Source: a virus
IMG/VR virus record: IMGVR_UViG_3300033145_001598
Span: 11,595 to 75,594 of that record
Length of the DNA stretch: 64,000 nucleotides
Strand: one strand, 5' to 3'
This document shows positions 15,996-31,860 of the stretch, one piece after another. The notes beneath the pieces are model-generated. The model saw nothing but the letters and a program-made list of their open reading frames with translations. It made no database searches and was not told the DNA's origin. Position 1 is the first letter of the stretch. Every line of letters starts with the position of its first letter. A program made the translations under genes and the position numbers.

Positions 15996-16955
15996 TTAAT
16001 CCAAGTCTATCAAGTTGAGTCTATCGTCCATTTCGGTAGTCTCAATGAGGATTGGTTCAGGACTTGCTATTGGTGCAGCTACTAGACAAGCAGCTTTAAT
16101 CGCCATAAGTTCCTGTATAATCCAATGTCTATTTCCTCTTATAGTATTCCATGCTGTATTGAATACCACTTGCCAACCAATCTGACTTTTAGCTACAATA
16201 GCACTTGCCCAGGGATCACATTTCTGTCCTCTATTGTCTCCCTCACCGCTGTAGCCCCATCCCTGATTTTGGTTCAGTTGAATCCATTTTACACCTAGAA
16301 AACTTGGACCAGAAAAAGACTGGATGTATTCAGCAGTCGCTCTTCCAATGAATCCATAGATATCATCTCCGGGAAACTGATTCCTTCTTAAGTCTACCTC
16401 TTCTCTTAACTTAGGCTCTGTTCTTCTTAAATAGAATGCATGGTCTTTTATCTTGTTCATTATTATAGAGTCTAGTCTCTCATATACTTTAGCAAGAAGT
16501 CGTGGAGTACCATTAGTTAAAATATAACGAGCATCTCTCCAGTGAGATATATTTGACTTCATACGAGTACTATTACCAATGTCATACCTATGAGCAAGCT
16601 GAGAATTATATTGTTGATCAAGTTTTTCTACTGCTTCCCAGTCTTGATTACTTGCAAGAGCATAGTAATGTCTTGCTTCAGCAGGTACATCCGGTGCGGT
16701 GAAAAAAGGTTCGGGTATTGGTTCTAATAATGTCTTTTCTTCCGTAAATGATTGACATACAGATAGAAGATCTAAAGGTATTATTGAATCAGATGCCGGT
16801 CTATCGACAAATGCTAGTTGTTGTACTTTTAAATCTAAGCTATTCATAACAGCATTAAGCTGTCTTACTTTAGGTAGCTTTCTAGATGTGTATCCATCGG
16901 TTCTTACGACAGCCTGTATTTCTGGATAACAATTGTTATGTTCGTAATTCGGCAT
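15996..16955 (-). CDS. Hypothetical protein with acidic C-terminal tail DDRLNLIDLD
   Basis: 319-aa ORF directly downstream of the AAA+ ATPase. Confidence 0.7.
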   Translation of the reverse strand: MPNYEHNNCYPEIQAVVRTDGYTSRKLPKVRQLNAVMNSLDLKVQQLAFVDRPASDSIIPLDLLSVCQSFTEEKTLLEPIPEPFFTAPDVPAEARHYYALASNQDWEAVEKLDQQYNSQLAHRYDIGNSTRMKSNISHWRDARYILTNGTPRLLAKVYERLDSIIMNKIKDHAFYLRRTEPKLREEVDLRRNQFPGDDIYGFIGRATAEYIQSFSGPSFLGVKWIQLNQNQGWGYSGEGDNRGQKCDPWASAIVAKSQIGWQVVFNTAWNTIRGNRHWIIQELMAIKAACLVAAPIASPEPILIETTEMDDRLNLIDLD

Positions 16956-16961
16956 TTTAAT

Positions 16962-19900
16962 TTAGTCGTCTAAAAGATCTGATGTTCTGACTTCTTCTTC
17001 AGATACATAGTCTTTCTTTTCTTTTTCTTTCTCTGTCTGAATCTCATCTAGGTCGTCTAGAGAGTCAGCTAGGTCGAGCTCTTTACCACTCTCTGTGGTA
17101 ACAACTTGAGCTCCTGGTGCATTGGCAGCAGCTGCTAGAGAGCTAGCATATCTTGCCCTGTCTCGTGCCCAGCTTCTAATCTCGTCAATCTTTTCCTTCA
17201 TGATCTTAGCAATAGCCTTCGTATCTTTCAGTGCTCCGAGAATATCCTTTGTCTGGATTTCTCTCTTGCCATCCTGAAATGCTCTGACAACAGATTCCTT
17301 TACTGCCTTCTCAATCTCAGAACCTGTGTACATATGACTAGCTGCTACTAGTACTTCCATGTCTAGCTTTAGGTCGTCAGCATTTCTATCTTTTTTCTTA
17401 AGATGGATACGAAAGATTTCATCTCTCTCTACAGATGTTGGTAGATCAACAAAGAACACTTCATTGAACCTTCTAATTAACTCTGGAGGTAGAGCTTGGA
17501 TATCATTTGCAGTAGCAATCGTGATGATACCTTCCATCCTCTCTTCCATCGCTGTCAGTAGAGTACCGAAAACACGAGCTAGCGTTCCTCCGTCTGAAAA
17601 ATTACTTGATTTTGACCCACTTAAGGACTTTTCAATCTCGTCTATCCAGAGTACAGCTGGTGCTACAGCTTCTGCTTGAGCGATGACCTGTCTCATCTTC
17701 TCTTCAGAGTTGTGGACAAGCATTGGACAGCTTCCTGCGATGAACTTTTCTAGTCCGTGTCCTGGTACAGAGATATCATATACAGTATCTTTTCCCTTTT
17801 CTCTTGGAACTTCTTTGATACTCTTAACTTTAACCCACCGAACCTCGGAATGTGTGGCTGCTTTCATTACTGTACATAGTTCGTCAGTAATTGGGGTACC
17901 ATAGTAAGTTCCAGGTGCGAATTGGATACATTTCTTTACTGTCTCTAGGCCAATAGCTGAAGCTCTATGATCATAATTATATGGTCTTGAGTGTAGCTTA
18001 CTCCACATTCTTTTACGCACAGCATTAATTTCGTCTTTAACCTTCTCTGTTAACGGAATGTAGTATCCATGAATATTAAAAGACTGTCTGTCTGCTAGGG
18101 CCTTTGCCTTATAGTCTTGGATAAATCCCACTTTCTTCTCAAACTTATTAAGGTCTGTCTCTGAACTGATTCTTACAATATAGTCTGTTCCTGGTGTGGT
18201 TCTCTTTCCGCTGTCTGAGATTTTCTCAGCAATATGAGCATGAATGCCTACTCTATGTAATAGATGAGCTATATCATCTCTCAATAACTTAGAGACACTG
18301 GATACTTCTAATATATGACCAGTAAAAGATCCGTCTGTTGAAAAGTAACCAGACAAAAGACCAAAAATATATTCTTTGCTATATCCGAAGACTGATTCTG
18401 GAACTCTTTTGGTATGAGAGTTCCCTTCATATCCATCAGCCTTCAAGGTAGCTTGTAGATCTCTTACATGAACTACCTTACACTGGTCGCTTGAACTACT
18501 GTCATATATAGAGTAATTAAAATTACCTTCGTCTAGTATTGCTTCAAAAGCTGGCAAGTCTTTGATGTTTAAATGATATCTTACATCTTTTCCATTATAA
18601 TCACCATCTCCTAGCCACGCTCCTGCTAGGAAACCTTCTGTCCAGGTACCTTTATCATTTGTTCCTTCAGCTACATAGAGTACACCAGGGGAAGCAATAA
18701 AGTCTCCTGGGTTCAGAGAGTCTACTCTCACTTCTTTAAGTCGAAGGTTGTCTGTGTAGGAGAATACACCATGGTCTCCAGTGGTTATAATACTTCTACC
18801 GTCCTCTGTCATGAGCTTATACAACTTGTCTTCTGGTTGCATTTTATGTGGAATAAAAGCTTCGACCTTTCCTCTTTGCCCTAATCCAGTATCTGTATAG
18901 GTATCTACCCAACAGTTGTCTGGTTTATTTTCTACTAGTTCCTGGATTGTATTCCTATGAGAGTCTCCGTCTTCGTCGTACCAGATAATCTCTTCAGAAC
19001 CCCTGATGCTACCTCCCACAAGGCCTGTCATTACCTTACCAACATCTAACCTTAAGAGAGGTAGATTCCACGCCGCGCTTACTGCCTTAGCCAACAGGCT
19101 CTTCCCAGTATTGTGAACAATAACTCCGTCAGCTACAAAATTGTTGTTGGGATATTCCATCTGGATATCATATGTGATATCTTCATCTCTTTTTTCAACA
19201 CTAACTACTGTCCCTTCTTGGATGTAATCTACATTAAAGTTTTCAACTTTAGAATGTAGATGAGCGTGGCCATCATGTTCCATGACCATTAGATTACTAA
19301 TGTCATCGTTCAGAGGACTCTCATCAATGTGATGTACATCATAGTTACGGCTCAAAAACTTAAGTTTTGATGATTGTTGTTCATTTGTCTTAAGAATATC
19401 AATAAATTCTTCTGGTGTCATTGAATTCATATGAGCTTCAATGACTAGTCGTGCATAGTTAGACCTCTGATATGTACATCCATTAACTTCATGCTCTGAT
19501 GCTTTTGGATGATACTTTAGAGTTTCTACAACTCTTCGTTTAGGTCTAAGTTTGATATTTTTACCACCACTAAATTGCGGCTTCATTGATCCTTGACATA
19601 GAACTTTCATTCCTCGTTCTAAGATACCTGCTGGTTTATATAAACCAGTTGCCATACAGATTGGATGATCAGGAGTAAGCATAACAATTTTGTTTTCATT
19701 TGAACCATCAATTGAAATGCATACTTCTACTATTTCTTTAATACCGGAATCAATAACACCAAGTACACGATTCTTAACAAATTTACCTTCACCATCAAAC
19801 GAGTGTAGATATGTGGGAATCTCTGGATTCCATTTATATCTATCGTCACCTCGTTGATTGAATCGTTTATATAGGTCTTCTACTCTAATGTCTCGGAAGT

Positions 19901-20897
19901 CAGTTCGTTTACCACGATTATATGTAGTTATGGTATCACCAGACACACATCCAGGTACGCCGGTCATGAGTACTCCTCGTAGTGGATCTACACCGAACTC
20001 TTTAGCTTCCTGTGAAAACTGGCTATCATACATAGAGAAATACTTCTTAGCATCATCACAGCCACCCACTTCACTGAAGTCTGGTGTTACTCCAATGTAT
20101 TCTAGAATGTCAGATCGTTTAATGACCTGCTTCTTCTCAAGTAACAACCTGCGTTCATCAATTCTCTTCAGGTGAGTGATGCAGGTAATGAGCGCGTTAT
20201 CTACTTCTAACTCAGTCATACCTTGTAGAGCAGTAGCAAATTTACTGAAGTCATCGTCCGTATAGTTCAGTTGAGACTGAATGGTCTTACCTTTATTCTT
20301 GTCTCTAACATGGTCTACTGTCATTTTGATACGTTCTTTGATGGCTTCATGACTTGGAAGCTCATACTCTACAACAGTAATCTGTTTCTCAATGGTAGGT
20401 TCTACTCCACCTTTAGTACCACTTGGACCATGAGCTACACATGGAGCTACGATAAGCAACGTCTTCTTTTGTTTGATTAGTGTTCCATAGAGATCTCTGA
20501 TCTGTCTTGGCAATGGTTGTGCCAGGACAGTATGGAAATCTTTCATGACAAAGATGGCGCCCTTCCTATCGTTAGGTATCTTAATATCATCAATACATTG
20601 CAGTGCCTTTGGAGGATTCCAGCTTTCTGCTTGTTCTCCAGAAGCTCTGGTTGCTGATGCCTTTGTACTGTACCTGACTAGGCCTTGATACGAAGACCAG
20701 GTCCACAAGTCTTTATTCTGACGTTGAGCTACTTCTTTGTAAAAGTTTAGGATAAATCTTTTCTCTTCATGTGTTGTTACCCAAATTATAGGTACGTGAG
20801 CCTTTACTAAACTAAAGATCTGGTCCATCGAGCTTTCATAATTTACTGAAGCTAGCTCTTGAGTATCATTAGATTCTGGTGTTTCTGTCTGTGACAT
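16962..20897 (-). CDS. Ycf46-like AAA+ ATPase with two inteins (about 597 aa after splicing)
   Basis: N-domain PIIWVTTHEE..R, KDFH; spliced Walker A GVPG/TGKS; LDVG..M.GLVGG/SE; Walker B LWIDEIEK; TAND...LPPE..RRF.EVFFVDLP. Confidence 0.92.
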   Translation of the reverse strand: MSQTETPESNDTQELASVNYESSMDQIFSLVKAHVPIIWVTTHEEKRFILNFYKEVAQRQNKDLWTWSSYQGLVRYSTKASATRASGEQAESWNPPKALQCIDDIKIPNDRKGAIFVMKDFHTVLAQPLPRQIRDLYGTLIKQKKTLLIVAPCVAHGPSGTKGGVEPTIEKQITVVEYELPSHEAIKERIKMTVDHVRDKNKGKTIQSQLNYTDDDFSKFATALQGMTELEVDNALITCITHLKRIDERRLLLEKKQVIKRSDILEYIGVTPDFSEVGGCDDAKKYFSMYDSQFSQEAKEFGVDPLRGVLMTGVPGCVSGDTITTYNRGKRTDFRDIRVEDLYKRFNQRGDDRYKWNPEIPTYLHSFDGEGKFVKNRVLGVIDSGIKEIVEVCISIDGSNENKIVMLTPDHPICMATGLYKPAGILERGMKVLCQGSMKPQFSGGKNIKLRPKRRVVETLKYHPKASEHEVNGCTYQRSNYARLVIEAHMNSMTPEEFIDILKTNEQQSSKLKFLSRNYDVHHIDESPLNDDISNLMVMEHDGHAHLHSKVENFNVDYIQEGTVVSVEKRDEDITYDIQMEYPNNNFVADGVIVHNTGKSLLAKAVSAAWNLPLLRLDVGKVMTGLVGGSIRGSEEIIWYDEDGDSHRNTIQELVENKPDNCWVDTYTDTGLGQRGKVEAFIPHKMQPEDKLYKLMTEDGRSIITTGDHGVFSYTDNLRLKEVRVDSLNPGDFIASPGVLYVAEGTNDKGTWTEGFLAGAWLGDGDYNGKDVRYHLNIKDLPAFEAILDEGNFNYSIYDSSSSDQCKVVHVRDLQATLKADGYEGNSHTKRVPESVFGYSKEYIFGLLSGYFSTDGSFTGHILEVSSVSKLLRDDIAHLLHRVGIHAHIAEKISDSGKRTTPGTDYIVRISSETDLNKFEKKVGFIQDYKAKALADRQSFNIHGYYIPLTEKVKDEINAVRKRMWSKLHSRPYNYDHRASAIGLETVKKCIQFAPGTYYGTPITDELCTVMKAATHSEVRWVKVKSIKEVPREKGKDTVYDISVPGHGLEKFIAGSCPMLVHNSEEKMRQVIAQAEAVAPAVLWIDEIEKSLSGSKSSNFSDGGTLARVFGTLLTAMEERMEGIITIATANDIQALPPELIRRFNEVFFVDLPTSVERDEIFRIHLKKKDRNADDLKLDMEVLVAASHMYTGSEIEKAVKESVVRAFQDGKREIQTKDILGALKDTKAIAKIMKEKIDEIRSWARDRARYASSLAAAANAPGAQVVTTESGKELDLADSLDDLDEIQTEKEKEKKDYVSEEEVRTSDLLDD
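17709..19010 (-). mobile_element. Intein 2 (434 aa, Ser1, LAGLIDADG) in the AAA+ ATPase
   Basis: LVGG|SIRGSE...LVHN|SEEK; TGDH block B; GAWLGDG and GYFSTDG. Confidence 0.93.
19110..19949 (-). mobile_element. Intein 1 (280 aa, HNH-type) inside Walker A of the AAA+ ATPase
   Basis: GVPG|CVSGDT...IVHN|TGKS; TPDH block B; VHHIDE...NDDISNLMVM..H...H. Confidence 0.93.
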
Positions 20898-20919
20898 TTA
20901 AATCGTCCCCTTGTTTATC

Positions 20920-21534
20920 TTATTTGTTATTTGTTTTCTCGTTATGTTTAACAAGTCTTACTTCATTTACTCCCAGAACATCCATGGTTTGTCTGATAGT
21001 ATATATTTCTTCAAATGAGACATGAATGTCTGCCTTATCATTATTTTTTTCTCCAATCTCGATTACTTTCCCATTCTTACTGACCTGAAAACAACTGGTC
21101 TTACCTGTTTCTTCAGTTAGCTTTTGTAACATAGCCAGATGTCTTCTGTCTAGATCTGGTAGATCTTTATCTGTGATAATTATTTCTAGTGGTTGAAAGA
21201 TTTCTTCTTTTAGTAATTCCTTAAGGTCAAATAATTGAGCCATCGCCTTTTCTCTAGACTGTACGTTTCCATCTTTCATCTCTAATCTTTGGAGGTTGGG
21301 AAGTTTGATTACTCTTACTCCACTAACCTCTTTTGATTCAATGTATTGAGTAACTGCACGTTCTAGAAATGCTCCAAAAGTTATGACTGTAACTCCAGGC
21401 TTCACATGATCTTCTACTCTAAACTGAGGAATGTTTAGAATAGAATATTCTTGTTCAAGTATCTCGAGCCACTTGTTAACTCTCTTAGTCTCTTCTTGTT
21501 TTGCAGCATTTGTGAACGCTATTACTTTTTTCAT
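20920..21534 (-). CDS. Hypothetical protein
   Basis: 204-aa ORF in operon. Confidence 0.6.
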   Translation of the reverse strand: MKKVIAFTNAAKQEETKRVNKWLEILEQEYSILNIPQFRVEDHVKPGVTVITFGAFLERAVTQYIESKEVSGVRVIKLPNLQRLEMKDGNVQSREKAMAQLFDLKELLKEEIFQPLEIIITDKDLPDLDRRHLAMLQKLTEETGKTSCFQVSKNGKVIEIGEKNNDKADIHVSFEEIYTIRQTMDVLGVNEVRLVKHNEKTNNK

Positions 21535-21536
21535 AA

Positions 21537-22115
21537 TTATTCAATCACAGAGAGTGCTCTACTAAACACATCGTCTTCATCTCTGTCAGCATCTGTTGCA
21601 TATGGAAAAATAACCTTCAGACTAAGCGCTGTTCTTCCACCACTCAACTCTACTCTTTTTATTTTCTTGAGATATCCAGCTTGAATTATTTTATAGTTAT
21701 GTGAAACTATTCTACTGATATGTTTCGGTACATATCCAAGAGTAATAGGAGTTACTTTGAGAAATGACATCGAATTTCTTCTAGGATCATCAAGTATTGC
21801 TGGCATAAACTGACCCTTTACAAGGGTAGCATTTTTATCGTATTGATTAGTAGGTTCTGATTCTAGAAGTATCTTAAAGACATCTCCGTTTCTTCCTAAA
21901 GGGTAAGAAACTACATCGTTATTGAAATCAACAACTGGAACTGCCAGGGAACGTGATCTTACTATTGTATGAATAGCATGCTTATAGTTCACCTGCATGT
22001 TCTCATGACCAATACTCTTAGTGTATCCAGCTATATAGAACTCGAAGGTACCTTCATCTATATTGTCTTTGATACCTTGCTTAGCATTAGCTAGCTCACC
22101 CAATAGTCCTGACAT
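21537..22115 (-). CDS. HIRAN-domain-like protein
   Basis: FYIAG, EPTNQYDKNA, LGYVPK. Confidence 0.7.
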   Translation of the reverse strand: MSGLLGELANAKQGIKDNIDEGTFEFYIAGYTKSIGHENMQVNYKHAIHTIVRSRSLAVPVVDFNNDVVSYPLGRNGDVFKILLESEPTNQYDKNATLVKGQFMPAILDDPRRNSMSFLKVTPITLGYVPKHISRIVSHNYKIIQAGYLKKIKRVELSGGRTALSLKVIFPYATDADRDEDDVFSRALSVIE

Positions 22116-22116
22116 T

Positions 22117-22716
22117 TTAGTTTACCTCTCCACTATTGTCATCATCATCTAATATCTCTTCTGCGCCCATGCTAATGATATCTTCTCTAGTGATTGCACC
22201 TTTCTTAAGTAGAATCCTAACAATCTCTTTAGGATCTGCACCAGAAGCTGCTGCAATTGATGCAATACTACTAGCATCATTCATTCTATGATACTGATCT
22301 ATTTCTTCTTGGGTTACTTCTTCTTCTATTGTATGGATCTTGATATTCTTCTGTTGGATAAACTTCAACAGATAGAACCCAACTCCCATCATGAAGAGCA
22401 AACTGTATCTTGTCATCTCCTGACTCATCAGAAGACTAGATAGTTGTGGTCCCATTAGTTTGTAAAGACCACTAACCATTGCCTGAGTCATCAGTGGAAT
22501 AACTTGTTGTCTAGTACTGTTGAGTTCTTCTTGCTTCATCCTGTCACTAACATACTCAGTGATCTTCTCAGTGATTTCAGAGATAGGAATCTCGTCGCCA
22601 TCTTCATCACGAAGTTGGACGGACATCTTGACCTTCCTGCGAGGGTCAATCATTACTATCTTTAGGAGTTGATCTATACTAGGTGTGTCGTCACTCTGCC
22701 ATGGTACGTCGCTCAT
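22117..22716 (-). CDS. Hypothetical protein
   Basis: 199-aa ORF in operon. Confidence 0.6.
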   Translation of the reverse strand: MSDVPWQSDDTPSIDQLLKIVMIDPRRKVKMSVQLRDEDGDEIPISEITEKITEYVSDRMKQEELNSTRQQVIPLMTQAMVSGLYKLMGPQLSSLLMSQEMTRYSLLFMMGVGFYLLKFIQQKNIKIHTIEEEVTQEEIDQYHRMNDASSIASIAAASGADPKEIVRILLKKGAITREDIISMGAEEILDDDDNSGEVN

Positions 22717-24313: not shown

Positions 24314-25126
24314 TTATTCTATGTCTAAATCATCTAATCTGTCATCTAAATCATCACCAGTTGCTGATAAAGCCGTCGGTGTACTCTGTTTACCTTTGGC
24401 TTTTCCATCGGGATAAGACCTAAGACCTTTACATTTTGGATAGGCTACACAACCAAAGAAATGGCCGAACTTACCTGCTCTCTTCTTCATTGGACCTTTA
24501 CAAATAGGACAGTCAAGATCTATGTATAGTTGTACTATTCTCTCGTGAGTACGCAGAGCGGCTTCCATGTTTGTTCTTGGAGTAGAACTCTCCAGCTGTC
24601 CATCAGTCAATCGAACATCTGTTTTAAAGTAACAACCATTTGAAGTAGGACGAGCTTGAAACGGAACTCCTGTCCATTCGGTAATAATTATCCTGGTTGG
24701 TACTTGTGTAACAGCTACTGTTCTTTCAATAGGAGAATTCATTGAAGCACACCAGGCAGCATAGCTTATCTCATCTCCATATCTATTCTTAAGGACCAAT
24801 ACTGCTTCAGCAGCTACTCGTACATTATCTATATGATCACTTATTTCAGGCGCATTACCTGCCTGCATTCTGTCTAGAATAAGAGAATCATAAGCGGCAC
24901 TTCTCACTTCAGGATATTGTGCTTGCAAGATTTCTCTGGTTCTGTCTTCTTCCATTGCAATCGCTTCTGCGGACTCTTGAGTTGCATCTATACCATGATA
25001 GTTCTGAAAGTCACTTGCCACTCCTGAGTATATAGGTGCTCGTTCTTGAACAACTCTGTTTAACTCTCGTGACCATGCTCTTGCATGAGCATCCGGAATT
25101 CCATTCGGTGGGTCTCCAGCTGGCAT
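24314..25126 (-). CDS. Protein with topoisomerase-I-type C4 zinc ribbon and acidic tail DDLDDRLDDLDIE
   Basis: CPICKGPM.KRAGKFGHFFGCVAYPKC. Confidence 0.8.
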   Translation of the reverse strand: MPAGDPPNGIPDAHARAWSRELNRVVQERAPIYSGVASDFQNYHGIDATQESAEAIAMEEDRTREILQAQYPEVRSAAYDSLILDRMQAGNAPEISDHIDNVRVAAEAVLVLKNRYGDEISYAAWCASMNSPIERTVAVTQVPTRIIITEWTGVPFQARPTSNGCYFKTDVRLTDGQLESSTPRTNMEAALRTHERIVQLYIDLDCPICKGPMKKRAGKFGHFFGCVAYPKCKGLRSYPDGKAKGKQSTPTALSATGDDLDDRLDDLDIE

Positions 25127-25398: not shown

Positions 25399-25737
25399 CT
25401 CTGGAGCAGGACTCTTGGCGGGAAGTCTTTGTGACCTGCCCTATTGATCAGATAGTACAGGTCTGTATAGTGTCATCGTTAGCACTAGAAGATTACTAAA
25501 TCCTAATTGTTCGATCTACTCTCAACGTGCTCTGCCGAACATTTGCTCTTTCACACGAATTATGGTTTCAATCCAGCTCATTCCTACCTTATATGTACCA
25601 ACGATCATAATATTAGCATGGTAATAATATAATCTAAGTAATTTCGGATTTAGTTTTTCAGAATGAGTTACCGCTTTCTTTAGCTCGCGGGCAGCTGTTA
25701 TATTAGAACCAGTCTCTTTTATTATAGAGATCTGGGG

Positions 25738-26403
25738 CTAAGTAGTTTTCTTTCTCCGTTTTCTTATCTTTTTCTGTTTTTTAGCAGGTTTCAAGATACC
25801 ATCTATAATTCCGTACTCTAGAGCTCCTTCTGCTGTTAAATAAATGTCGTTACCATTTAGTAAGTATTCTTTTACTTCCTTTTCGGTCTCGAACACACTA
25901 TGTTGTGTCCAGAATTTAATCTCTCGGTTGTATTCCTGTTCTACCCACTTTAATTGAGAGAGTATTTGATCTCTGGTTCCACCCATAAAGTCTGTATAGA
26001 ATCCATGTACCATAATGGTAGCATCAGAATCGGCAAGTCTTTTACCTACCGTACCAGCAGCTAGAATACATGCTCCCATAGAACATACTTCTCCTACTGC
26101 TACAGTTTTCACGTCCATACGGACATGTTTCATCATAGATATAAGAGCTGATCCTTCTGCTATTTGTCCACCAACAGAATTGACTACGATTTGAACATCG
26201 TCTTTCCAATGAGGATTGAGGTGCTTGAGTAGAATGTCTTGCTGTATCTCTGTTAGACTACCTTCGTCTATTTCTCCCACAATATAGTAAACCCCTTGTG
26301 TTTTGAGGCCTTCTTCAGCAAGCGGTGGTTCTAGTTTGGCATCATCTAAAAACTCAAACAGACTAGTACCTCCTGAATCTTTCCTACGTACACGCATGAG
26401 CAC
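25738..26403 (-). CDS. clpP: ClpP-family protease proteolytic subunit
   Basis: VNSVGG, CSMG (catalytic Ser), IMVH (His), DIYLTAEGALEYGIID (Asp). Confidence 0.92.
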   Translation of the reverse strand: MLMRVRRKDSGGTSLFEFLDDAKLEPPLAEEGLKTQGVYYIVGEIDEGSLTEIQQDILLKHLNPHWKDDVQIVVNSVGGQIAEGSALISMMKHVRMDVKTVAVGEVCSMGACILAAGTVGKRLADSDATIMVHGFYTDFMGGTRDQILSQLKWVEQEYNREIKFWTQHSVFETEKEVKEYLLNGNDIYLTAEGALEYGIIDGILKPAKKQKKIRKRRKKTT

Positions 26404-26532
26404 TCCTACTTACAACTACCTATACATCCATTATTCTACCTCTTTCAGTAGTTATTGACACTACTGATCTATAAAATATATAAGTATAGGAATTCATTCA
26501 TAAATTAGAAAGATGTCCAGGTTTGAACCTAG

Positions 26533-26874
26533 TTAATCAGCACGCATGAACTTTACTTCTTTGCTTGCATATACTCTCTTCGTCTTGATAGCAATGGCTT
26601 CAACTTCGCCCCCGCCCTCGACCCAAGAATCTTTACTCTCAAGGTTTAGTGGTGCCATGGAAGCTAGATCTATGATATCAACCCATCCTTCCTCATCGTC
26701 AGCGGCTATAGCGCCCTTACACCACTTACCGTCCACCATCACCAGTGTTTTTTCGAACTTGGGGTCGGTTTTGTCTATTTTCATTGCTTCTTCCTTGGTT
26801 TTTCTTACCTTGGTAATTTCTGTTACCTTGGTAGCCTCCCTTCCTGGGTGGTCTGTTTTTCCATACCTTTCCAC
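26533..26874 (-). CDS. Hypothetical protein; start probably at MKIDK (about 26784)
   Basis: ORF track; ADDEEGWV. Confidence 0.5.
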   Translation of the reverse strand: MERYGKTDHPGREATKVTEITKVRKTKEEAMKIDKTDPKFEKTLVMVDGKWCKGAIAADDEEGWVDIIDLASMAPLNLESKDSWVEGGGEVEAIAIKTKRVYASKEVKFMRAD

Positions 26875-27085
26875 AAGTTGTACACTCGAACTCTTTTCTT
26901 ATGGGGCCATGGCTCTTGTATTGTATCCAGATCTCTATCATTGTTCCGGTGCAGGAGTACCTCCTACAATCTTTGATAGGACTCAAGACGTCTTTCATAT
27001 AGGGAGCTGCACAATAGGTATGTTTGTTTCGACCTGACATTCACTTACCTGAAGATAGTATCAGATAAGTGTACTGGATCATTAA

Positions 27086-27625
27086 CTATAGGTCAAGGTG
27101 ATCTATCTGGTCTGAAAGGTCATCTCCTGAAGAGCTATGTAATCCTTTCTTATATCCTGCTTCAAACCCCTCTTGCCACAGATCGTCCAGGTCTTTCCTG
27201 TTGAAGATAGGTTTTTCTGTGTCCATAGGATGCATAGGAGCCTCTACAGCGGTCTTTAATGCTAACCAGGTGGTAGGGACTGGTCCGTGTGACAAAGCTC
27301 TAGAAACGTCTTCCAGGATGTCTCGTAGCCCTCTCTGATTGACTGGAATCCTATCAGCTAGCTTTTTCAGATCTCTACCTACGTTATCGAAGTATCTATC
27401 CACTACTAGCTTGGTTCTATCAGCACAGATGGTTACATACTCACTCATAGTCTCTAGGGTAACCTCATAGGATCGACCCTTTGCATTAACATTAACAGTT
27501 CTCTCTTTATCTGCTTCAGAGACTAAGTTAACGATATTCTTAAGGTCTTCCACAATTATATCAAGTTCATTATGGTAGACGTGGACCGGTGCTTCGTATT
27601 CCGGGATAGTTGGAGGTGCAGGCAT
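27086..27625 (-). CDS. Hypothetical protein with acidic tail DDLSDQIDHLDL
   Basis: 179-aa ORF. Confidence 0.65.
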   Translation of the reverse strand: MPAPPTIPEYEAPVHVYHNELDIIVEDLKNIVNLVSEADKERTVNVNAKGRSYEVTLETMSEYVTICADRTKLVVDRYFDNVGRDLKKLADRIPVNQRGLRDILEDVSRALSHGPVPTTWLALKTAVEAPMHPMDTEKPIFNRKDLDDLWQEGFEAGYKKGLHSSSGDDLSDQIDHLDL

Positions 27626-28055
27626 CTCTTGCTCTTTCTAGTTCGTTGATTATTTTTAATATCTTATTGGGATATTGTCTATCGTACCAATTATAGTGTC
27701 TTAGCCAGTGATGTGTTCCTTTGTTCTTAGCCAGACACGATTTTTTCATCTGATATAGCAGTCGGACACCTTCCTTGATATTACATTCCATCTTTTTTAC
27801 GTTACATCTGTTACAAAATTTAAATGGACTGTCTTTAGGACAATGGAGCTGCATTAGACCATAGTCATTGGTTCTACTAGGATACTTTAGCTGTCTGAAG
27901 CTGCTTTCATGCTTCATAATAGCTAAAACTACTATAGGATCTACTTTATACTTGTTTGTATACTGACAGGTATAGGTGGCGATCGCTTTAGACTCTCTGT
28001 ATGGTTGTCCTTGGGTAGATAGGAGGCAAATCAAGAGAACTATGCAAGTTTTCAC
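27570..28055 (-). CDS. Secreted lytic transglycosylase (SLT domain)
   Basis: Signal peptide; AIMKHESSF (catalytic Glu), YGLMQL, NIKEG, HYN. Confidence 0.85.
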   Translation of the reverse strand: MKTCIVLLICLLSTQGQPYRESKAIATYTCQYTNKYKVDPIVVLAIMKHESSFRQLKYPSRTNDYGLMQLHCPKDSPFKFCNRCNVKKMECNIKEGVRLLYQMKKSCLAKNKGTHHWLRHYNWYDRQYPNKILKIINELERARDACTSNYPGIRSTGPRLP

Positions 28056-28537
28056 TTAGCATCAGCTTTCTTTTTCTTTATAACTCCTTTCAATTTGATT
28101 AATTCCTTCTCAGTGACCTCTAGCCAGTCTTCATATGTCTTTCTGTACCAGGCTACGGGACTATCTGTTACCTGGCCTGGTTCTCTGGCTATTTTCTTGT
28201 TGAGGAGTCTCTTGGCAGACACAGGGTTCTCTCCACAGAGTACTGATCGAGGGTCTACTGCTGTGACTACGATCTTATAGACAGGACTGTCACGGTGGGG
28301 GGTTCGTACTACATATCCTTTACAGAAGAAGTACGAGGTTTTGTCTGCTGGGTCTGCAAAGGCATGAAAATAGACGAGTTTGCCGATGCCAAGCTTAGTC
28401 TTCTTAATAGGGGGACTACCACGCTGGGGTTTTCTTCTGTTGGAATTATTTCTGTTCATATTCCTGAACCTGGAGTTGGCACTGCCAGCCGTTGGACTGG
28501 TGAGGACTTCCATCCTGAAGAGGGATAGAGCGACCAC
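28052..28537 (-). CDS. Basic hypothetical protein in the RT operon; start probably about 28459
   Basis: ORF track; Lys/Arg-rich. Confidence 0.55.
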   Translation of the reverse strand: MVALSLFRMEVLTSPTAGSANSRFRNMNRNNSNRRKPQRGSPPIKKTKLGIGKLVYFHAFADPADKTSYFFCKGYVVRTPHRDSPVYKIVVTAVDPRSVLCGENPVSAKRLLNKKIAREPGQVTDSPVAWYRKTYEDWLEVTEKELIKLKGVIKKKKADAK

Positions 28538-28694
28538 AGTTCATATTGGTACAGTACTGTGCATTTTTTGCCTTCCGGACTTTCCATTTAGTATTGCTAC
28601 AATAGCTACACCTAGGACCTTGTATTACTTCACCGTCCTCGGCACAATTGAGCTCTTCTACTTCTTTTCCGCTAGAAACATTAATTACTACCAT
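28446..28694 (-). CDS. Small Zn-ribbon protein overlapping the RT stop
   Basis: CSYC...CTNMNC. Confidence 0.55.
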   Translation of the reverse strand: MVVINVSSGKEVEELNCAEDGEVIQGPRCSYCSNTKWKVRKAKNAQYCTNMNCGRSIPLQDGSPHQSNGWQCQLQVQEYEQK

Positions 28695-29562
28695 TCTGCC
28701 ACCTATTCCTTCTTCTTTCGAAGTATAATGTCATGGCTTGGTACTGTTCCATGCTTATCTGTTTAACGTAGTTCAACTTCCCTTTTATTCTATCATCAAT
28801 TGATATATTTTGTCGGGCAACCTTGTCTAATTCAGCTCTCAATCTTCTTTTAAACTCTCTTGGAACCTTCATTGTACCATCACTTACGGATATTCCAGTG
28901 ATTCTTTGTGGTTTGCTGCCTCTATACAACAGCTTACTCTTCTTATGGTTTACCCTGTATCCATAATCTTGTATTATTTCACAGACTGTCTTCTGAAAGC
29001 CTTTAACTAGCTTCTCTCCACTAAAAGATAGATCATCCATATATCTTGTGTATCTTAAGCTATATTGTTTAGCTAAGGAATCTATTTCTTTATCAACTGG
29101 AGTAAAAGAGATGTTGGCTAAGACAGGTGAAGATGGCGCCCCGGTGGGTAGCCTCTCGTCAAGGAAGCAAAAGCCGGCCGCTTCGGTAAGGAGAGGGACA
29201 ACATCCATATAGCTACCCACTAGGGCATAATTGAATTTATTTATATCAGTAGATGGAAAGAATCTTTTAACATCTAGGTTCAGGATCATGTTTGATCCTA
29301 GATGCTGTTTGGCGTTGTGTATTGCTCCCTTACCTGGGACTCCATAGACAGCAGAATGTAGGGGGAATAGATCTAAGATACTAATGAGCTTTTGTTGGAT
29401 AGCTTTGAGAGGCTCAGTAGGTTCTTCTATGAGTCTGTATCCACCATTAGGTTTAGGTATGCCAAATCTAATGTAATTATCTGGTAGATTTTGTTTAAGC
29501 TCTCTAAGTTTGATCTCTTCTACTCCTGTACTATGAGCTAACTTTCTGTAGATATCTTCCAT
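28681..29562 (-). CDS. Retron-type reverse transcriptase (293 aa, RT domain only)
   Basis: IPKPNGGYRLI..P, NAKQH (retron NAxxH), LDVKRFFPS, LPTGAPSSP, YTRYMDDLSFS, NHKKS, RITG (retron VTG equivalent). Confidence 0.9.
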   Translation of the reverse strand: MEDIYRKLAHSTGVEEIKLRELKQNLPDNYIRFGIPKPNGGYRLIEEPTEPLKAIQQKLISILDLFPLHSAVYGVPGKGAIHNAKQHLGSNMILNLDVKRFFPSTDINKFNYALVGSYMDVVPLLTEAAGFCFLDERLPTGAPSSPVLANISFTPVDKEIDSLAKQYSLRYTRYMDDLSFSGEKLVKGFQKTVCEIIQDYGYRVNHKKSKLLYRGSKPQRITGISVSDGTMKVPREFKRRLRAELDKVARQNISIDDRIKGKLNYVKQISMEQYQAMTLYFERRRNRWQNGSN

Positions 29563-29796
29563 CTCTCTTGTTGTTCCTTCTGCGTTTAATCAGCAGTCCC
29601 TTCATATAGGGACCCCGTATACCACGCAGTATTTACCTTATATACCCTGTTACTAATTAGTTTATAAGATCTATTAACTATTCATGAGCTCATCAGTCCC
29701 TCATAACCTCAGCTAGCGCTGTTGTTGTGACTGATGATTTCATCATCAGGCACGCGAAGTGCAGGGCACGAGCATGAGGGTCTGATGATGAAAACT
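29563..29796 (-). ncRNA. Putative RT-associated structured ncRNA (msr/msd-like)
   Basis: Non-coding gap directly upstream of the RT. Perfect 12-bp (29738-49/29782-93) and 9-bp (29690-98/29729-37) stems, a 15-nt inverted repeat (29690-704/29774-88) and a further motif copy at 29590-605. Confidence 0.6.
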
Positions 29797-29949
29797 CTAT
29801 GTCTGAGCGTTGGCAGAATCGCCTTCGTCTATTTCTCTTGCTGCTTCTACTACTTTCTCTATTTTAACTCGGTCTGATCCGAGGTGTCGTCTCTTTCGCA
29901 GAGGTTGCAGTGGATAGTTAGCTCTCTTCTTCTTCTTTCTTCTACTCAT
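29797..29949 (-). CDS. Small basic protein (50 aa)
   Basis: Manual ORF MSRRKKKKRANYPLQPLRKRRHLGSDRVKIEKVVEAAREIDEGDSANAQT, GGAGG Shine-Dalgarno, overlaps upstream stop. Confidence 0.55.
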   Translation of the reverse strand: MSRRKKKKRANYPLQPLRKRRHLGSDRVKIEKVVEAAREIDEGDSANAQT

Positions 29950-30361
29950 TTTCTTCCTCCATACAGTCGGCTATTCTATCCGTTATGTCATCACTAGGTA
30001 AGTCGTCTAATTTTTTGAACGGAACAGATGGTCCTCTTATTGCTAGATCATAGTTTCCAGTGTCTTGATTATAGCTAGCAAGAACTCCAAATCGACCATT
30101 GTCACCTTCCCAAGTCTTTAATATTCTATCTATCTCAAACTTAGGAATACTTATCTCTCCCTCTTTTCCATATCTCATACAGAACCAGGCCATTACAACA
30201 GCAGCTGCTTGTTCTCCAGGCATATGATCTAGGTTCAGAGGCTCTACTGTAGTGGGTTTAGTAGATAGCTCATCTTCACCGGAGCCTGCATGGTATGCAT
30301 ATGAGTTTGAATAAGAAGCCATGTAATCTCCTGGATCTCTTCCTTTGCGTCCTCCTGCCAT
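29942..30361 (-). CDS. Hypothetical protein with DDITDRI near the C-terminus
   Basis: 139-aa ORF, TAATG coupling. Confidence 0.6.
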   Translation of the reverse strand: MAGGRKGRDPGDYMASYSNSYAYHAGSGEDELSTKPTTVEPLNLDHMPGEQAAAVVMAWFCMRYGKEGEISIPKFEIDRILKTWEGDNGRFGVLASYNQDTGNYDLAIRGPSVPFKKLDDLPSDDITDRIADCMEEENE

Positions 30362-31068
30362 TACAGCTCTAGGAACTCTTTCATGTATGGTAGATCAGCT
30401 ATCCATTTACAGATAGAATATTTCTCTGATTCATACTTCCATTCAGGGAGTCTATGAGCTCGGCGTTGTCTAAACATACTCATTGCTGTCTCATAGCTGA
30501 ATGTCATGGTAGCTTTCTGTAGATAGCCTTCGGGGAGTGTAGCTTTCAAATGACAGTGTAGTTTATTGCTTTCTTCTTTAGCTTGTACACTACGCAGTAT
30601 AGATAACTGGCATATTTTGTCGATTAGATTATTTAATGGTTCTAGTGCTGTTTCTGACAGGGGATATTCAAAGTCTTTAGCTTGTAGCTGTCTGTCAGTC
30701 AGTTTATGCATAGTAGAACAGCTGTTCCTAACTGTAGCTACCTTGTAGGTGTCTACTTCTGTCCATACATACCTTGGGAGTGTAAAGTCAACCCAGATCA
30801 TTATCTGTCTGAGGAACTTACGATGTTCAGAGCCTCCCTTAATGAGCTTCTTAGCTAGGACGAGATCTAAGGGTCCTATGAATGGTGCTTCTGGTGCAAG
30901 AATGCTATGGTCTGGTCCATAAAAGGAAGAACGCCAGGCTTTTCCTTTGGCACGAAGATTACTTGGTCCAAATACACTGTCATTTTTATCCCAGCTATTT
31001 TTAGGGTTACGCATTGCTTTAGCTATTGCTTTACGGAATCCATATACTTCTGTATCTTCAATCTTCAT
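30361..31068 (-). CDS. Conserved phage protein, ThyX-like fold suspected
   Basis: MRNP.NSW, HRKFLRQI, PRY.W.E.DTY, SCSTMH, LPEG, QRR.HRLPEW; canonical ThyX RHR motif absent. Confidence 0.55.
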   Translation of the reverse strand: MKIEDTEVYGFRKAIAKAMRNPKNSWDKNDSVFGPSNLRAKGKAWRSSFYGPDHSILAPEAPFIGPLDLVLAKKLIKGGSEHRKFLRQIMIWVDFTLPRYVWTEVDTYKVATVRNSCSTMHKLTDRQLQAKDFEYPLSETALEPLNNLIDKICQLSILRSVQAKEESNKLHCHLKATLPEGYLQKATMTFSYETAMSMFRQRRAHRLPEWKYESEKYSICKWIADLPYMKEFLEL

Positions 31069-31323
31069 CTTCTTTTTTGTTTCCTAAAAGCCAGGGAGGT
31101 GTTCCATCTTTTTCTTCTGGTGTAGGCACAGAAGGAATGATTACGCCGTTTTCATCTGTCTGGTGTGCCATCTCTGTCATTACATCTGATAACAGATCGG
31201 CCAATTCTTCTATCGTTATGGAAGGTCCAGCAAAGTAGAGTGAATATTCCTTATTCTTCTTGTCCCATTTGATAATGAGATGTGTTTTGTCCTTTTCTAA
31301 AGTATCCATCATTGTATTATAGC

Positions 31324-31860
31324 TTAAATATCCAAGTCATCTAATCTATCCAGTAGATCTTCATGCATGTTTATCTTACGAGGACGTTTAATCTTAGTAA
31401 TTTTAGGTGTTTCCTCTGGTGAGACTGGATTATGTGTTAGTAAATCTCTGAGTCTTTCTCTGATTAACACTCGATCAACACTCCTCCCAGCAGACCAGTT
31501 TACAATACGATAAGGAGGACTCTTATGTATCTTGCTACGTACTATTCGTGCTAGCTCAGATAAAGCCAACTTTTTACTTCCAAACTCATAAGAAGAAGTA
31601 GCTGCAGCATCTTTACTTAACTCTCCAGATACAGTTCCTATTCTTCCATACGTAGAACAAATCCTATACTTACTGGTAGTTGTCTTCATTACATAAGAAA
31701 CATATCTTTTACGATGAGTACCTTCAATACAATCCATTGATATGGAAGCTATACTACGGGCAAATACACTATCAGATACACCATTACTAATTCTCTTTAT
31801 ATCATTATAGTAGTCCCACTTGCGTACTGTAGTTGTAGGTGGTGCTGGATTAGTAGGCAT
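31324..31860 (-). CDS. WGR-like domain protein with acidic tail EDLLDRLDDLDI
   Basis: YGRIGT...F...A....I..K..K..Y pattern of WGR domains. Confidence 0.55.
   Translation of the reverse strand: MPTNPAPPTTTVRKWDYYNDIKRISNGVSDSVFARSIASISMDCIEGTHRKRYVSYVMKTTTSKYRICSTYGRIGTVSGELSKDAAATSSYEFGSKKLALSELARIVRSKIHKSPPYRIVNWSAGRSVDRVLIRERLRDLLTHNPVSPEETPKITKIKRPRKINMHEDLLDRLDDLDI

What the first reader, a model, noticed from the sequence alone, without database searches (positions are those of the whole stretch)
15996..31860. Shared acidic C-terminal tag (DDLxDRLDxLD[LI]) on unrelated proteins near a phage AAA+ ATPase and ClpP
Seen: four proteins with unrelated bodies end in nearly the same peptide: 15996-16955 ...EMDDRLNLIDLD*, 24314-25126 ...GDDLDDRLDDLDIE*, 27086-27625 ...GDDLSDQIDHLDL*, 31324-31860 ...HEDLLDRLDDLDI*. 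Weaker versions occur in 29942-30361 (SDDITDRIAD), 21537-22115 (EDDVFSRALSVIE) and the AAA+ ATPase tail (DLADSLDDLDEI...VRTSDLLDD). The DNA differs at synonymous positions, so conservation is at peptide level, and each tag follows a low-complexity linker. All lie within 16 kb that also encodes the Ycf46-like ATPase and ClpP. Established: AAA+ unfoldases and hubs such as SSB recognise short C-terminal tails. Inference: a phage-encoded addressing code (degron, unfoldase docking, or a packaging/localisation signal) that recruits a set of clients, several with nucleic-acid-binding domains (WGR-like, topo Zn ribbon, HIRAN-like), to one machine.
Basis: partly seen in the sequence, partly recalled or inferred. 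Interest (0 to 1): 0.8.

Follow-up and report, generated by a model that had tools for sequence, protein, structure and literature searches.

The report
Shared address tail, phage ATPase clients
Several unrelated proteins of this uncultured large phage and of its relatives end in the same short peptide as the phage's own Cdc48-like unfolding ATPase, so the peptide most likely works as an address label for that still uncharacterised machine.

Summary
Residue shuffles do not reproduce this, and the codons differ at synonymous sites.

The tagged proteins have almost no detectable relatives. The ATPase does, and it led to six syntenic IMG/VR phage fragments. In these, 5-10% of proteins end in a related peptide, [D/N/S]-R-[F/W/L/M/I]-x-x-[I/L/V], usually followed by acidic residues. 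Over seven genomes there are 47 such C-termini against 12.6 expected (P = 9e-14).

Orthologues of window proteins A, B, 21537-22115 and 37620-38639 keep a tag. The ATPase itself ends in it in all six relatives. A more distant phage with a Ycf46-type ATPase uses another tag, R-[R/K]-I-[Q/S]-[L/I]-stop, on 8 proteins. Cyanobacterial Ycf46 keeps a ...SDRIQxQL tail.

Best reading: a lineage-specific C-terminal docking peptide shared by the ATPase tail and its clients, read by one site on the ATPase machine. Whether clients are degraded through the neighbouring ClpP, remodelled or only assembled is open. No reader was identified.

This scan noted the same kind of thing on other DNA (e1-5835439, e1-6076969). 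I found no paper describing it.

The parts
24314..25126 (-). Client B, 270 aa: unknown N-terminal body, Zn_ribbon_Top1 (residues 205-238), Lys/Ser/Thr linker, then the tag GDDLDDRLDDLDIE (24317-24358).
   Evidence: With the tag removed, the body matches G006_28192 (ends PDRFTDLEL) and G005_3154 (ends NRFSGLEL). Both are Zn_ribbon_Top1 proteins encoded just after ClpP.
31324..31860 (-). Client D, 178 aa: sub-threshold WGR-like body, basic linker KRPRKINM, then the tag HEDLLDRLDDLDI.
   Evidence: Only one weak hit besides itself (E 1.1e-4, a 29-residue stretch of a 709-aa protein) among 1.84 billion representative proteins.
27086..27625 (-). Client C, 179 aa: unknown body, linker HSSSG, then the tag DDLSDQIDHLDL.
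   Evidence: No family match, no phage tblastn match and no usable Atlas hit.
15996..16955 (-). Client A, 319 aa, encoded directly after the ATPase. Divergent tag EMDDRLNLIDLD.
   Evidence: No relative among 5.8 billion proteins. With the tag removed, the body matches G005_10543 (ends PSRFSMIEI, E 1.2e-9). Genes at the same syntenic place in relatives end HSRFAVL, HRFNLDE and SRWHNLI.
21537..22115 (-). Client, 192 aa, with a degenerate tag ...DDVFSRALSVIE.
   Evidence: Orthologues end QRITDILEG, VRFSDMMSEI, DRMAAVME and TSRFKRFL.
37620..38639 (-). Client, 339 aa (phrog_1362), ending DTRARLAAVIQDIG.
   Evidence: The G002 orthologue (E 4e-25) ends NRMEQIIEDINN.
16962..20897 (-). Ycf46-type, Cdc48/p97-like AAA+ ATPase, 1311 aa, with two inteins. 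Its C-terminal extension (16965-17078) holds a conserved acidic helix ELDLADSLDDLDEI and the terminal VRTSDLLDD.
   Evidence: Pfam AAA, lid and inteins. PDB best matches are VAT, Cdc48 and p97. The model of a relative aligns over its whole length with p97 D1-D2.
25738..26403 (-). ClpP-family peptidase, 221 aa, with a polybasic C-terminal tail PAKKQKKIRKRRKKTT. Candidate downstream partner.
   Evidence: Pfam CLP_protease 8.5e-27. ClpP is present at the same place in G001, G002, G004, G005 and G006. Long basic tails occur in 4 of the 6 ClpP proteins.
36899..37300 (-). DUF1257 (Ycf35-like) protein. Candidate part of the ATPase machine.
   Evidence: Pfam 1.1e-10. It is encoded directly after the ATPase in G002-G006 and four genes downstream of it in G007.
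36245..36442 (-). DUF2997 protein, 65 aa. Candidate part of the ATPase machine.
   Evidence: Pfam 1.6e-12.
29942..30361 (-). Possible weak tag ...SDDITDRIADCMEEENE. Not supported.
   Evidence: BLOSUM score 23, within the shuffle range. No orthologue.
10025..10465 (-). Possible short tag ...QRKDRLTEL. Not followed up.
   Evidence: Regular-expression hit only. It resembles the G002 ATPase end DSRFSDL.

Best explanation
The peptide is a genetically encoded C-terminal docking tag. It is a short, probably helical motif on a flexible linker, with the core R-hydrophobic-x-x-hydrophobic. In this phage it reads D-D-L-x-D-R-L-D-x-L-D-[I/L].

The phage's Ycf46-type, Cdc48-like AAA+ ATPase carries the same kind of tail, and so do a changing set of otherwise unrelated phage proteins. 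All of them would bind one docking site on the ATPase machine. That site could be on the ring itself, with the ATPase's own tail acting as a resident or competing ligand. It could also be on a fixed partner such as DUF1257, DUF2997 or ClpP.

Tagged proteins would thus be brought to the unfoldase as a group, to be remodelled, released from complexes or handed to ClpP.

Shown:
- The tag exists and is conserved at the peptide level.
- It sits at the C-terminus.
- It persists in orthologues while its sequence drifts by lineage.
- It is present on the ATPase.

Inferred:
- That a single reader exists.
- What happens to the clients.
For: 1. Enrichment in the window.
2. Enrichment across the lineage: the loose core R[FWLMI]..[LIVM], with R 5-11 residues from the end, occurs 47 times against 12.6 expected from the internal rate in seven genomes (P = 9e-14). 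The peak is at 7-9 residues from the end.
3. The ATPase ends in the tag in 6 of 6 relatives: KDRINGITNLE, DSRFSDL, DNRFDSILDED, TNRFSNVIQEDN, GNRFEEISKEN, GDRMADVANDE. The window's VRTSDLLDD aligns with these.
4. Searches with the tag removed find orthologues of A, B, 21537-22115 and 37620-38639 that carry the relatives' version of the tag.
5. The distant ATPase-bearing phage G007 has R[RKY]I[QSD][LIF] at 8 C-termini against 1 internal site (P about 7e-20), and its ATPase ends KKVAI.
6. One client family is shared between the two lineages, each copy with its own lineage's tag: LSRKIQL against SRWWQIMNED.
7. The families found in both tag-using lineages are the ATPase, DUF1257, RecA, the ribonucleotide reductase and a few patchily shared ones. 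Of these only the ATPase and DUF1257 belong to the ATPase module, and ClpP is not among them.
8. Most of 79 cyanobacterial Ycf46 proteins end ...LS[D/S/N]RIQxQ[L/F]x, so a tail of this kind is old in the family.
9. Arg, Ile and Leu codons and all three stop codons vary among tags, and no DNA motif follows them.
10. The ATPase belongs to the protein-unfolding Cdc48/VAT/p97 group.
11. Published precedents exist for short helical or tail motifs read by AAA+ machines: MIM1 (D/E)xxLxxRLxxL(K/R) with the Vps4 MIT domain (PMC5141497), the Pup helix with the Mpa coiled coil (PMC8755798, PMC8138137), and the HslU tail EDLSRFIL with HslV (PMC4106860).
Against: - No reader was identified, and no complex could be modelled with the tools at hand.
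- In the AlphaFold model the ATPase tail is a helix of low confidence (pLDDT 43-54), so nothing can be said about where it docks.
- All records are fragments, 11-61% complete by CheckV (39% for the window's own record), so absences such as ClpP in G007 are weak evidence.
- Within the seven close genomes, client tails match their own ATPase tail only slightly better than other genomes' ATPase tails (permutation p = 0.043).
- The motif expressions were written after seeing the data. The contrast between C-terminal and internal positions is still fair, because the expressions carry no positional term.
- Genes were called by ORF rules only.
- In five complete cyanobacterial genomes the strict Ycf46 tail occurs at no other C-terminus. 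Client tagging may therefore be confined to phages, and the ATPase tail could have a purely internal role.
Confidence: 0.5

Rival explanations
1. The tail docks on and gates a peptidase, as the HslU tail does. The ATPase would bind the phage ClpP through its C-terminal tail. Clients with the same tail would bind ClpP pockets directly, as regulators, adaptors or self-delivering substrates.
For: - The E. coli HslU octapeptide EDLSRFIL docks between HslV subunits and activates HslV on its own (PMC4106860). It resembles DSRFSDL and DNRFDSIL on the phage ATPases.
- ClpP lies in the cluster in every relative whose contig covers that place.
- A tagged protein is encoded just after ClpP in five relatives. 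In three of them, as in window protein B, it is a Zn_ribbon_Top1 protein.
- Four of the six ClpP proteins carry long basic tails that could pair with the acidic ATPase element.
Against: - G007 uses a tag but shows no ClpP in 107 kb.
- Known ClpP partners dock through IGF-type loops, not C-terminal tails (established knowledge).
- The G004 ClpP has no basic tail although its ATPase has the acidic element.
- Cyanobacterial Ycf46 keeps a tail without an adjacent ClpP gene.
Confidence: 0.15
2. The tail is an SSB- or gp32-type acidic tail. It would recruit DNA-binding proteins to a replication or recombination hub, or fold back on each protein's own DNA-binding surface as a gate.
For: - T4 gp32 ends [21 protein letters not shown], which is close to the window's version, including a Ser/Gly linker. 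The gp32 C-terminal region recruits partners, and its acidic end is thought to occupy its own DNA-binding site (PMC11551737).
- The window is rich in replication and recombination genes: DnaE, RecA, Whirly, RNase HII, endonuclease VII.
- B carries a topoisomerase-type zinc ribbon.
Against: - In relatives the tag is not acidic in its core (RFSGLEL, SRWHNLI, HSRFAVL).
- It sits on the AAA+ ATPase, which is not a DNA-binding protein.
- Self-gating of unrelated DNA-binding surfaces would not keep a precise shared motif.
- The window has its own SSB-type tail (DGIPF) on another protein, 33659-34018.
Confidence: 0.12
3. The tail is a packaging or localisation signal that sends a set of proteins into the capsid or to a compartment or site in the infected cell.
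For: - Shared terminal peptides on unrelated bodies are how T4 targets its internal proteins to the capsid (established knowledge; there the peptide is N-terminal).
- The ClpP-family peptidase also matches PHROG families annotated as head maturation protease.
Against: - The tagged genes lie among replication and nucleotide-metabolism genes, and the ClpP gene is not next to portal or capsid genes.
- An ATPase of this kind would be an unusual capsid cargo.
- No structural genes were available to test this.
Confidence: 0.08
4. The tail is directed at the host. Phage proteins would copy the tail of a host protein, for instance the host's own Ycf46-type ATPase, to occupy or hijack the host reader of that tail.
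For: Cellular Ycf46 proteins carry a conserved related tail. The phages expand the tail onto many proteins, while five cyanobacterial genomes do not.
Against: The host is unknown. The tag changes together with the phage's own ATPase tail in G007 against G000-G006, which points to a phage-encoded reader.
Confidence: 0.08
5. The similarity is a chance resemblance of acidic low-complexity ends, or a DNA-level signal that overlaps stop codons.
For: Acidic C-termini are common in this phage, and a few expression hits are clearly false.
Against: Shuffle controls, the positional enrichment, conservation in orthologues, and varied synonymous codons and stop codons with no shared downstream DNA.
Confidence: 0.01

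Closest known systems
HslU C-terminal tail (EDLSRFIL) docking on HslV
   Same: The motif sits at the extreme C-terminus of an AAA+ unfoldase. It has an Arg followed by an aromatic or aliphatic residue and acidic residues before it. In free HslU the tail is tucked between subunits, and it swings out to a partner in the complex (PMC4106860). A peptidase gene lies nearby here too.
   Different: The peptidase here is of the ClpP family, not HslV, and the contig has no HslV/proteasome or HslU/ClpX-type AAA_2 match. The ATPase is of the Cdc48/p97 kind. No other proteins are known to share the HslU tail, which is the central feature here.
MIM1 tails of ESCRT-III proteins read by the MIT domain of the Vps4 AAA ATPase
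   Same: Several proteins end in a short amphipathic helix that addresses them to one AAA ATPase. B and D contain LxxRLxxL, the core of (D/E)xxLxxRLxxL(K/R) (PMC5141497, PMC12057046).
   Different: The last K/R is Asp here, and the leading D/E is not in register. The relatives' tags (RFxxI) do not fit MIM1. No MIT domain was found in the contig. In ESCRT-III the tagged proteins are paralogues, whereas here the bodies are unrelated. Vps4 does not carry the motif itself.
Pup helix binding the Mpa coiled coil (Pup-proteasome system)
   Same: An acidic amphipathic helix (...TDDLLDEIDDVLEEN...) docks on the N-terminal part of a proteasomal-type AAA ATPase and delivers substrates (PMC8138137, PMC8755798). 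It shares 6 of 12 residues with EDLLDRLDDLDI.
   Different: Pup is a separate protein ligated to lysines, whereas this tag is encoded in each gene. There is no Pup match. The modelled ATPase N-terminal part is a pseudo-AAA domain with no coiled coil.
Acidic C-terminal tails of phage and bacterial SSBs (T4 gp32, SSB-Ct), and T4 clamp-binding tails shared by gp43, gp33 and gp55
   Same: A flexible linker carries a short acidic-hydrophobic C-terminal peptide that a hub reads. The gp32 end DLDDLLNDL is nearly the window motif. The T4 clamp tails are a precedent for one tail on unrelated phage proteins (gp33 ends TLDFLL; the rest is established knowledge).
   Different: In those systems the tail is on DNA-replication or transcription proteins and is read by replisome parts. 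Here the constant carrier is an AAA+ unfoldase, and the core in relatives is not acidic.
p97/Cdc48 C-terminal tail as a docking site for cofactors
   Same: The fold is the same: the model aligns over its whole length with p97 D1-D2. In p97 a short acidic-hydrophobic C-terminal tail recruits cofactors (established knowledge, not tested here).
   Different: p97 clients do not carry copies of the p97 tail, and the phage contig shows no recognisable p97 cofactor domain.

Membership tests
ClpXP/ssrA-type C-terminal degron | A non-polar C-terminal end (such as LAA-COOH) read by a ClpX/ClpA-type unfoldase. | tested here: not met
   The tags end in alternating Asp and aliphatic residues. No AAA_2 (ClpX/ClpA/HslU-type) ATPase was found in the contig, though the contig is only 39% complete.
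MIM1-MIT (ESCRT-III / Vps4) | The consensus (D/E)xxLxxRLxxL(K/R) at the C-terminus. | tested here: not met
   B and D meet LxxRLxxL, but the last position is Asp and the first is Gly or His. A, C and all relatives' tags deviate. The consensus is from PMC5141497.
MIM1-MIT (ESCRT-III / Vps4) | A reader with an MIT domain. | tested here: not met
   No PF04212 match at E <= 10 in the contig. The ATPase N-terminal part models as a pseudo-AAA domain.
Pup-Mpa tagging | The tag is a separate small protein ending GGQ/GGE that is ligated to substrate lysines. | tested here: not met
   The tag is the encoded C-terminus of each protein. There is no PF05639 match.
HslU-type peptidase-docking tail | A conserved tail with a key aromatic residue at the extreme C-terminus of the AAA+ ATPase. 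| tested here: met
   Five of the six relatives' ATPases end in [D/N/S]-R-[F/M]-x-x-[I/V/L], and the G001 ATPase ends KDRINGITNLE. The window's VRTSDLLDD aligns with them.
HslU-type peptidase-docking tail | The tail binds and activates the partner peptidase. | not testable with these tools
   This needs complex modelling or biochemistry. Only gene neighbourhood with ClpP is available.
Classical-clade (Cdc48/p97/VAT-like) AAA+ unfoldase, Ycf46 type | AAA and lid domains, sequence similarity to Cdc48/VAT/p97, and a tandem-domain fold. | tested here: met
   Pfam AAA 8e-19 and AAA_lid_3. PDB best match is the VAT-like ATPase at 6e-27. Foldseek matches p97/Cdc48 over 560-610 columns.
SSB-Ct / gp32-type acidic tail | The tail belongs to a single-stranded-DNA-binding protein and is read by replisome partners. 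| tested here: inconclusive
   The sequence is close to the gp32 end. The carriers here are an ATPase, zinc-ribbon proteins and proteins of unknown fold, and the Whirly and SpoVG-like proteins do not carry it.

The most novel reading that the evidence does not exclude
The tag is the client-selection code of the Ycf46 / Ycf35 (DUF1257) / DUF2997 module, which is conserved in cyanobacteria and plastids and has no known function. The ATPase's own conserved C-terminal tail would be a resident pseudo-client for its client-binding site. Phages would have multiplied the code onto 5-10% of their proteins, rewriting it lineage by lineage.
Probability: 0.25. Interest if true: 0.85.

Novelty: new variant of a known kind. 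Interest (0 to 1): 0.72.

Why it matters
Hubs that read short terminal tails are known, for example degrons, clamp and SSB tails, and MIM-MIT. Three things are not described in any paper I could find:
- a tag shared between an AAA+ unfoldase's own tail and a changing set of unrelated phage proteins;
- its conservation across a phage lineage;
- its replacement by a different tag in another lineage.

If the reading holds, it defines a regulon-like group of phage proteins handled together. It also offers a rule for predicting clients from sequence alone. The tags could serve as portable recruitment or degradation handles.

Tried and rejected
**Relatives of the tagged proteins**
- A and B have none among 5.8 billion proteins.
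- D has only one weak partial hit besides itself (E 1.1e-4) among 1.84 billion representatives.
- A, C and D have no tblastn match in GenBank phages.
- IMG/VR pattern scans with A and B found nothing useful.
- The Atlas gave no usable hit for C.

**Back-translated tag pattern**
- IMG/VR gave two false hits.
- Metagenomes gave 75 hits, nearly all antisense frames of GC-rich genes. Exceptions were a cellular ferredoxin-like family ending DDL[IM]DSLDALDL and a 215-aa phage protein ending EDDLGDSLDDLDLSKLDLDD. Neither bears on this phage.

**Searches for a reader or a matching structure**
- PDB sequence searches with the tails gave nothing meaningful.
- MIT, Pup, AAA_2 and proteasome/HslV family searches of the contig were all negative.

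**Other checks**
- All four strong clients start Met-Pro (11 of 110 genes do; hypergeometric 6e-5). Most tagged proteins of the relatives do not, so I do not build on it.
- The 14288-15064 family ends in a conserved LDR[LM], but that is family conservation without the second hydrophobic position, so it is not a tag.
- A link between ClpP basic tails and the acidic ATPase element holds in 5 of 6 genomes only.
- Other proteins with the strict Ycf46 tail in five cyanobacterial genomes: none.
- The AlphaFold model could not place the tail because confidence there is low.

I could not fetch the metagenome contigs of the closest ATPase relatives and used IMG/VR records instead.

Full report
**What the DNA is.** The window is bases 11595-75594 of a 75.6-kb linear IMG/VR virus record that CheckV rates 39% complete. 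Nearly all genes lie on the minus strand. The annotated genes are for replication and nucleotide metabolism:
- DnaE in two pieces, one with an intein
- RecA
- a class II ribonucleotide reductase with an intein
- dNMP kinase
- a Whirly-type protein
- RNase HII, RtcB and endonuclease VII
- a retron-like reverse transcriptase
- a ClpP-family peptidase
- a 1311-aa AAA+ ATPase with two inteins
- DUF1257 and DUF2997

No structural genes are on the fragment.

A strict expression finds only B, C and D among all 377 ORFs, each within two residues of the stop.

I scanned the 110 likely proteins with B's 12-mer. D (49) and C (42) scored far above everything else. The ATPase tail (32), an N-terminal stretch of 13923-14291 (32) and A (31) followed. 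In 300 shuffles the best score anywhere averaged 26.8 and the best C-terminal score averaged 13.7. Identical residues use different codons. Each tag follows a polar, Ser/Gly-rich or basic linker.

**Finding relatives.** The tagged proteins are nearly orphans: searches found no relatives, apart from one weak partial hit for D. The N-terminal extein of the ATPase does have relatives at 41-49% identity. An alignment of these (A2) pulled six IMG/VR records out of the viral collection. I fetched them whole as G001-G006, 40-116 kb.

They are clearly kin. BLAST clustering finds well over a dozen families present in all seven genomes, in conserved order around ClpP, Whirly, the ATPase, DUF1257, DUF2997 and the reductase.

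**The tag is lineage-wide.** In the relatives many proteins end in [D/N/S]-R-[F/W/L/M/I]-x-x-[I/L/V], usually followed by acidic residues. Examples:

| Genome | C-terminal ends |
|---|---|
| G005 | NRFSGLEL, PSRFSMIEI, SRWWQIMNED, DRFALLFGDNS |
| G006 | DRFTDLEL, TRFDHLDE, GRFDNLEED, DRMAAVME |
| G003 | SRWKQIAQEF, SRWEAVADDL |
| G002 | SRWHNLI, NRFSNLIE |

G006's D-T-R-F-D-H-L-D-E is visibly the same motif as the window's S-D-Q-I-D-H-L-D-L.

A deliberately loose core, R[FWLMI]..[LIVM], occurs 47 times with its Arg 5-11 residues from the end. The internal rate predicts 12.6 (P = 9e-14), and there is a sharp peak at 7-9 residues. Codons and stop codons vary, and no shared DNA follows the stops.

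**Orthologues keep the tag while its letters change.** I removed the last 14 residues from each query and searched again:

| Window protein | Orthologue | Orthologue ends |
|---|---|---|
| A | G005_10543 | PSRFSMIEI |
| B | G006_28192, G005_3154 | DRFTDLEL, NRFSGLEL |
| 37620-38639 | G002 protein | NRMEQIIEDINN |
| 21537-22115 | G002 and G003 proteins | QRITDILEG, VRFSDMMSEI |

The B orthologues are Zn_ribbon_Top1 proteins encoded just after ClpP. C and D have no orthologues, so the client list turns over.

**The ATPase carries the tag.** All six relatives' ATPases end in it. In the alignment of the C-terminal extensions the window's VRTSDLLDD falls on the same columns.

The same alignment shows a second conserved element upstream, SGKKLDLxDALDDLDEI, present in G000 and G002-G006.

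The ATPase is of the Cdc48/VAT/p97 kind by sequence. A model of the intein-free G005 protein has mean pLDDT 76.7, and its tail is a helix of low confidence. The model aligns over its whole length with p97 D1-D2, so the Ycf46-type N-terminal half is a pseudo-AAA domain.

**A second tag in a second lineage.** G007 is a 107-kb record whose ATPase is only 29% identical. It has eight proteins ending R-[R/K/Y]-I-[Q/S/D]-[L/I/F], against one internal match in 31,185 positions (P about 7e-20). Its ATPase ends KKVAI.

One tagged G007 protein (LSRKIQL) is homologous to a tagged G005 protein (SRWWQIMNED). The same client thus wears each lineage's own tag.

The families found in both lineages are the ATPase, DUF1257, RecA, the ribonucleotide reductase and a few patchily shared ones. 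Of these only the ATPase and DUF1257 belong to the ATPase module. G007 shows no ClpP.

Within the seven close genomes, client tails fit their own ATPase tail only slightly better than other genomes' ATPase tails (p = 0.043).

**The ATPase tail is old.** Most of 79 cyanobacterial Ycf46 proteins end ...LS[D/S/N]RIQxQ[L/F]x. In five complete cyanobacterial genomes that strict tail occurs at no other C-terminus. Nothing with it lies within 4 kb of ycf46. So the tail seems to be a feature of the ATPase family that phages have copied onto other proteins.

**How it most likely works.** The simplest account of a motif that sits on the ATPase and on a shifting set of unrelated proteins, and that is rewritten together in different lineages, is a single docking site that reads all of them. 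That site would be either on the ATPase ring or on a constant partner.

Published cases show each element is plausible:
- Vps4 reads C-terminal MIM1 helices (PMC5141497, PMC12057046).
- Mpa reads the acidic Pup helix (PMC8755798, PMC8138137).
- The HslU tail EDLSRFIL is tucked between HslU subunits when free, and docks on and activates HslV in the complex (PMC4106860).

None of these families fits as a membership. MIT, Pup, HslV and ClpX-type proteins are absent from the contig, and the consensus positions differ.

Whether clients are degraded is open. ClpP and a tagged zinc-ribbon protein next to it argue for a proteolytic arm in this lineage.

**Rivals.**
- The window's version looks strikingly like the end of T4 gp32 (DLDDLLNDL; PMC11551737). 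A replisome-hub or self-gating reading is possible, but it fits the non-acidic tags of the relatives and the ATPase carrier poorly.
- A packaging signal cannot be tested without structural genes.
- A host-directed mimic is possible, because cellular Ycf46 has a related tail.
- Chance and DNA-level signals are excluded by the controls.

**Known or new.** Searches of the paper library for Ycf46, DUF1257 and DUF2997 returned no functional or structural study and nothing on shared tails.

Earlier notes of this scan describe the same kind of thing on other DNA: e1-5835439 (an acidic helical tail shared with the phage ATPase) and e1-6076969 (GRK[IV]R shared with a Cdc48-like ATPase). I reached the ATPase link independently before reading them. 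They are AI notes, not evidence.

**Limits.**
- All genomes are fragments.
- Genes were called by simple ORF rules. C-termini are fixed by stop codons, so start errors do not matter, and spurious ORFs only dilute the signal.
- Motif expressions were written after seeing the data.
- No complex could be modelled.

Noticed in passing
window 33659-34018 (-): A 119-aa SpoVG-fold protein (Pfam 1e-8) ends ...GKQYNDGIPF. This is the kind of tail bacterial SSB uses to recruit partners, here on a protein that is not an SSB. It may be a second, host-directed address tail in the same phage.
   Followed up: no
window 44092-44538 and 44528-44713 (-), and genome bases 8534-8758 and 8748-8951 (before the window): Four small proteins end Q-[L/V]-E-F-[N/R]-F (QLEFNFGE, QLEFNFDAR, QLEFRFED, QVEFRF). 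This is a third shared C-terminal motif, loosely like the QLxLxL clamp-binding peptide. First-stage notes e1-6101184 and e1-6101174 touch these genes.
   Followed up: no
window 15996-16955, 24314-25126, 27086-27625, 31324-31860: All four strong clients start Met-Pro, and three have Pro-rich first dozen residues (MPAGDPPNGIP, MPAPPTIPEYEAP, MPTNPAPPTTTV). Only 11 of 110 genes start MP (hypergeometric about 6e-5). Most tagged proteins of the relatives do not share this.
   Followed up: partly
window 25738-26403 (-); L083 4403-5098, L086 2394-3149, L087 4546-5298: The phage ClpP proteins carry long polybasic C-terminal tails (for example PAKKQKKIRKRRKKTT and KKKPKKATRKAKVKKKRKKE). Tails of this kind are absent in G001 and G004. 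Their role is unknown. They could pair with the acidic element of the ATPase extension.
   Followed up: partly
G007 (loci L191-L196), e.g. 16267-16533, 16530-16829, 26526-26921, 47633-48055: A distant phage with a Ycf46-type ATPase has its own C-terminal tag R-[R/K/Y]-I-[Q/S/D]-[L/I/F] on eight proteins. Its ATPase ends KKVAI.
   Followed up: yes
proteins P0008-P0011, P0014, P0016; G003 2840-4291 and 4347-5144: In many relatives the ATPase is split into two genes by a split intein at ...AMAPC|, whereas the window has two contiguous inteins at other sites. The second window intein seems to start with Ile, not Cys or Ser.
   Followed up: no
window 28681-29562 (-): The retron-like reverse transcriptase noted by first-stage readers has orthologues in G001, G002, G004 and G006, so it is a conserved gene of this phage lineage.
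   Followed up: no
L009 2966-3613 (same protein in L040): A 215-aa protein of an unrelated small phage-like contig ends EDDLGDSLDDLDLSKLDLDD. Three neighbouring small ORFs end in Y-x-F or similar (LESIYF, TYYMYF, NECLYF), which looks like another shared tail.
   Followed up: no
L015 4696-5757, L037, L044, L076: A cellular family of about 350 aa with a 4Fe-4S ferredoxin domain, from marine metagenomes, ends DDL[I/M]DSLD[A/D]LDL. This is almost the window's tag, in a non-phage setting.
   Followed up: no
window 22117-22716 (-) and orthologues in G002-G005: A conserved 200-aa acidic protein, encoded two genes upstream of the ATPase gene, ends in a family-specific [E/D]-D-L-x-x-[I/L]-L-G followed by an acidic run. 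It is not the tag, but it is another acidic amphipathic C-terminus in the ATPase operon.
   Followed up: no
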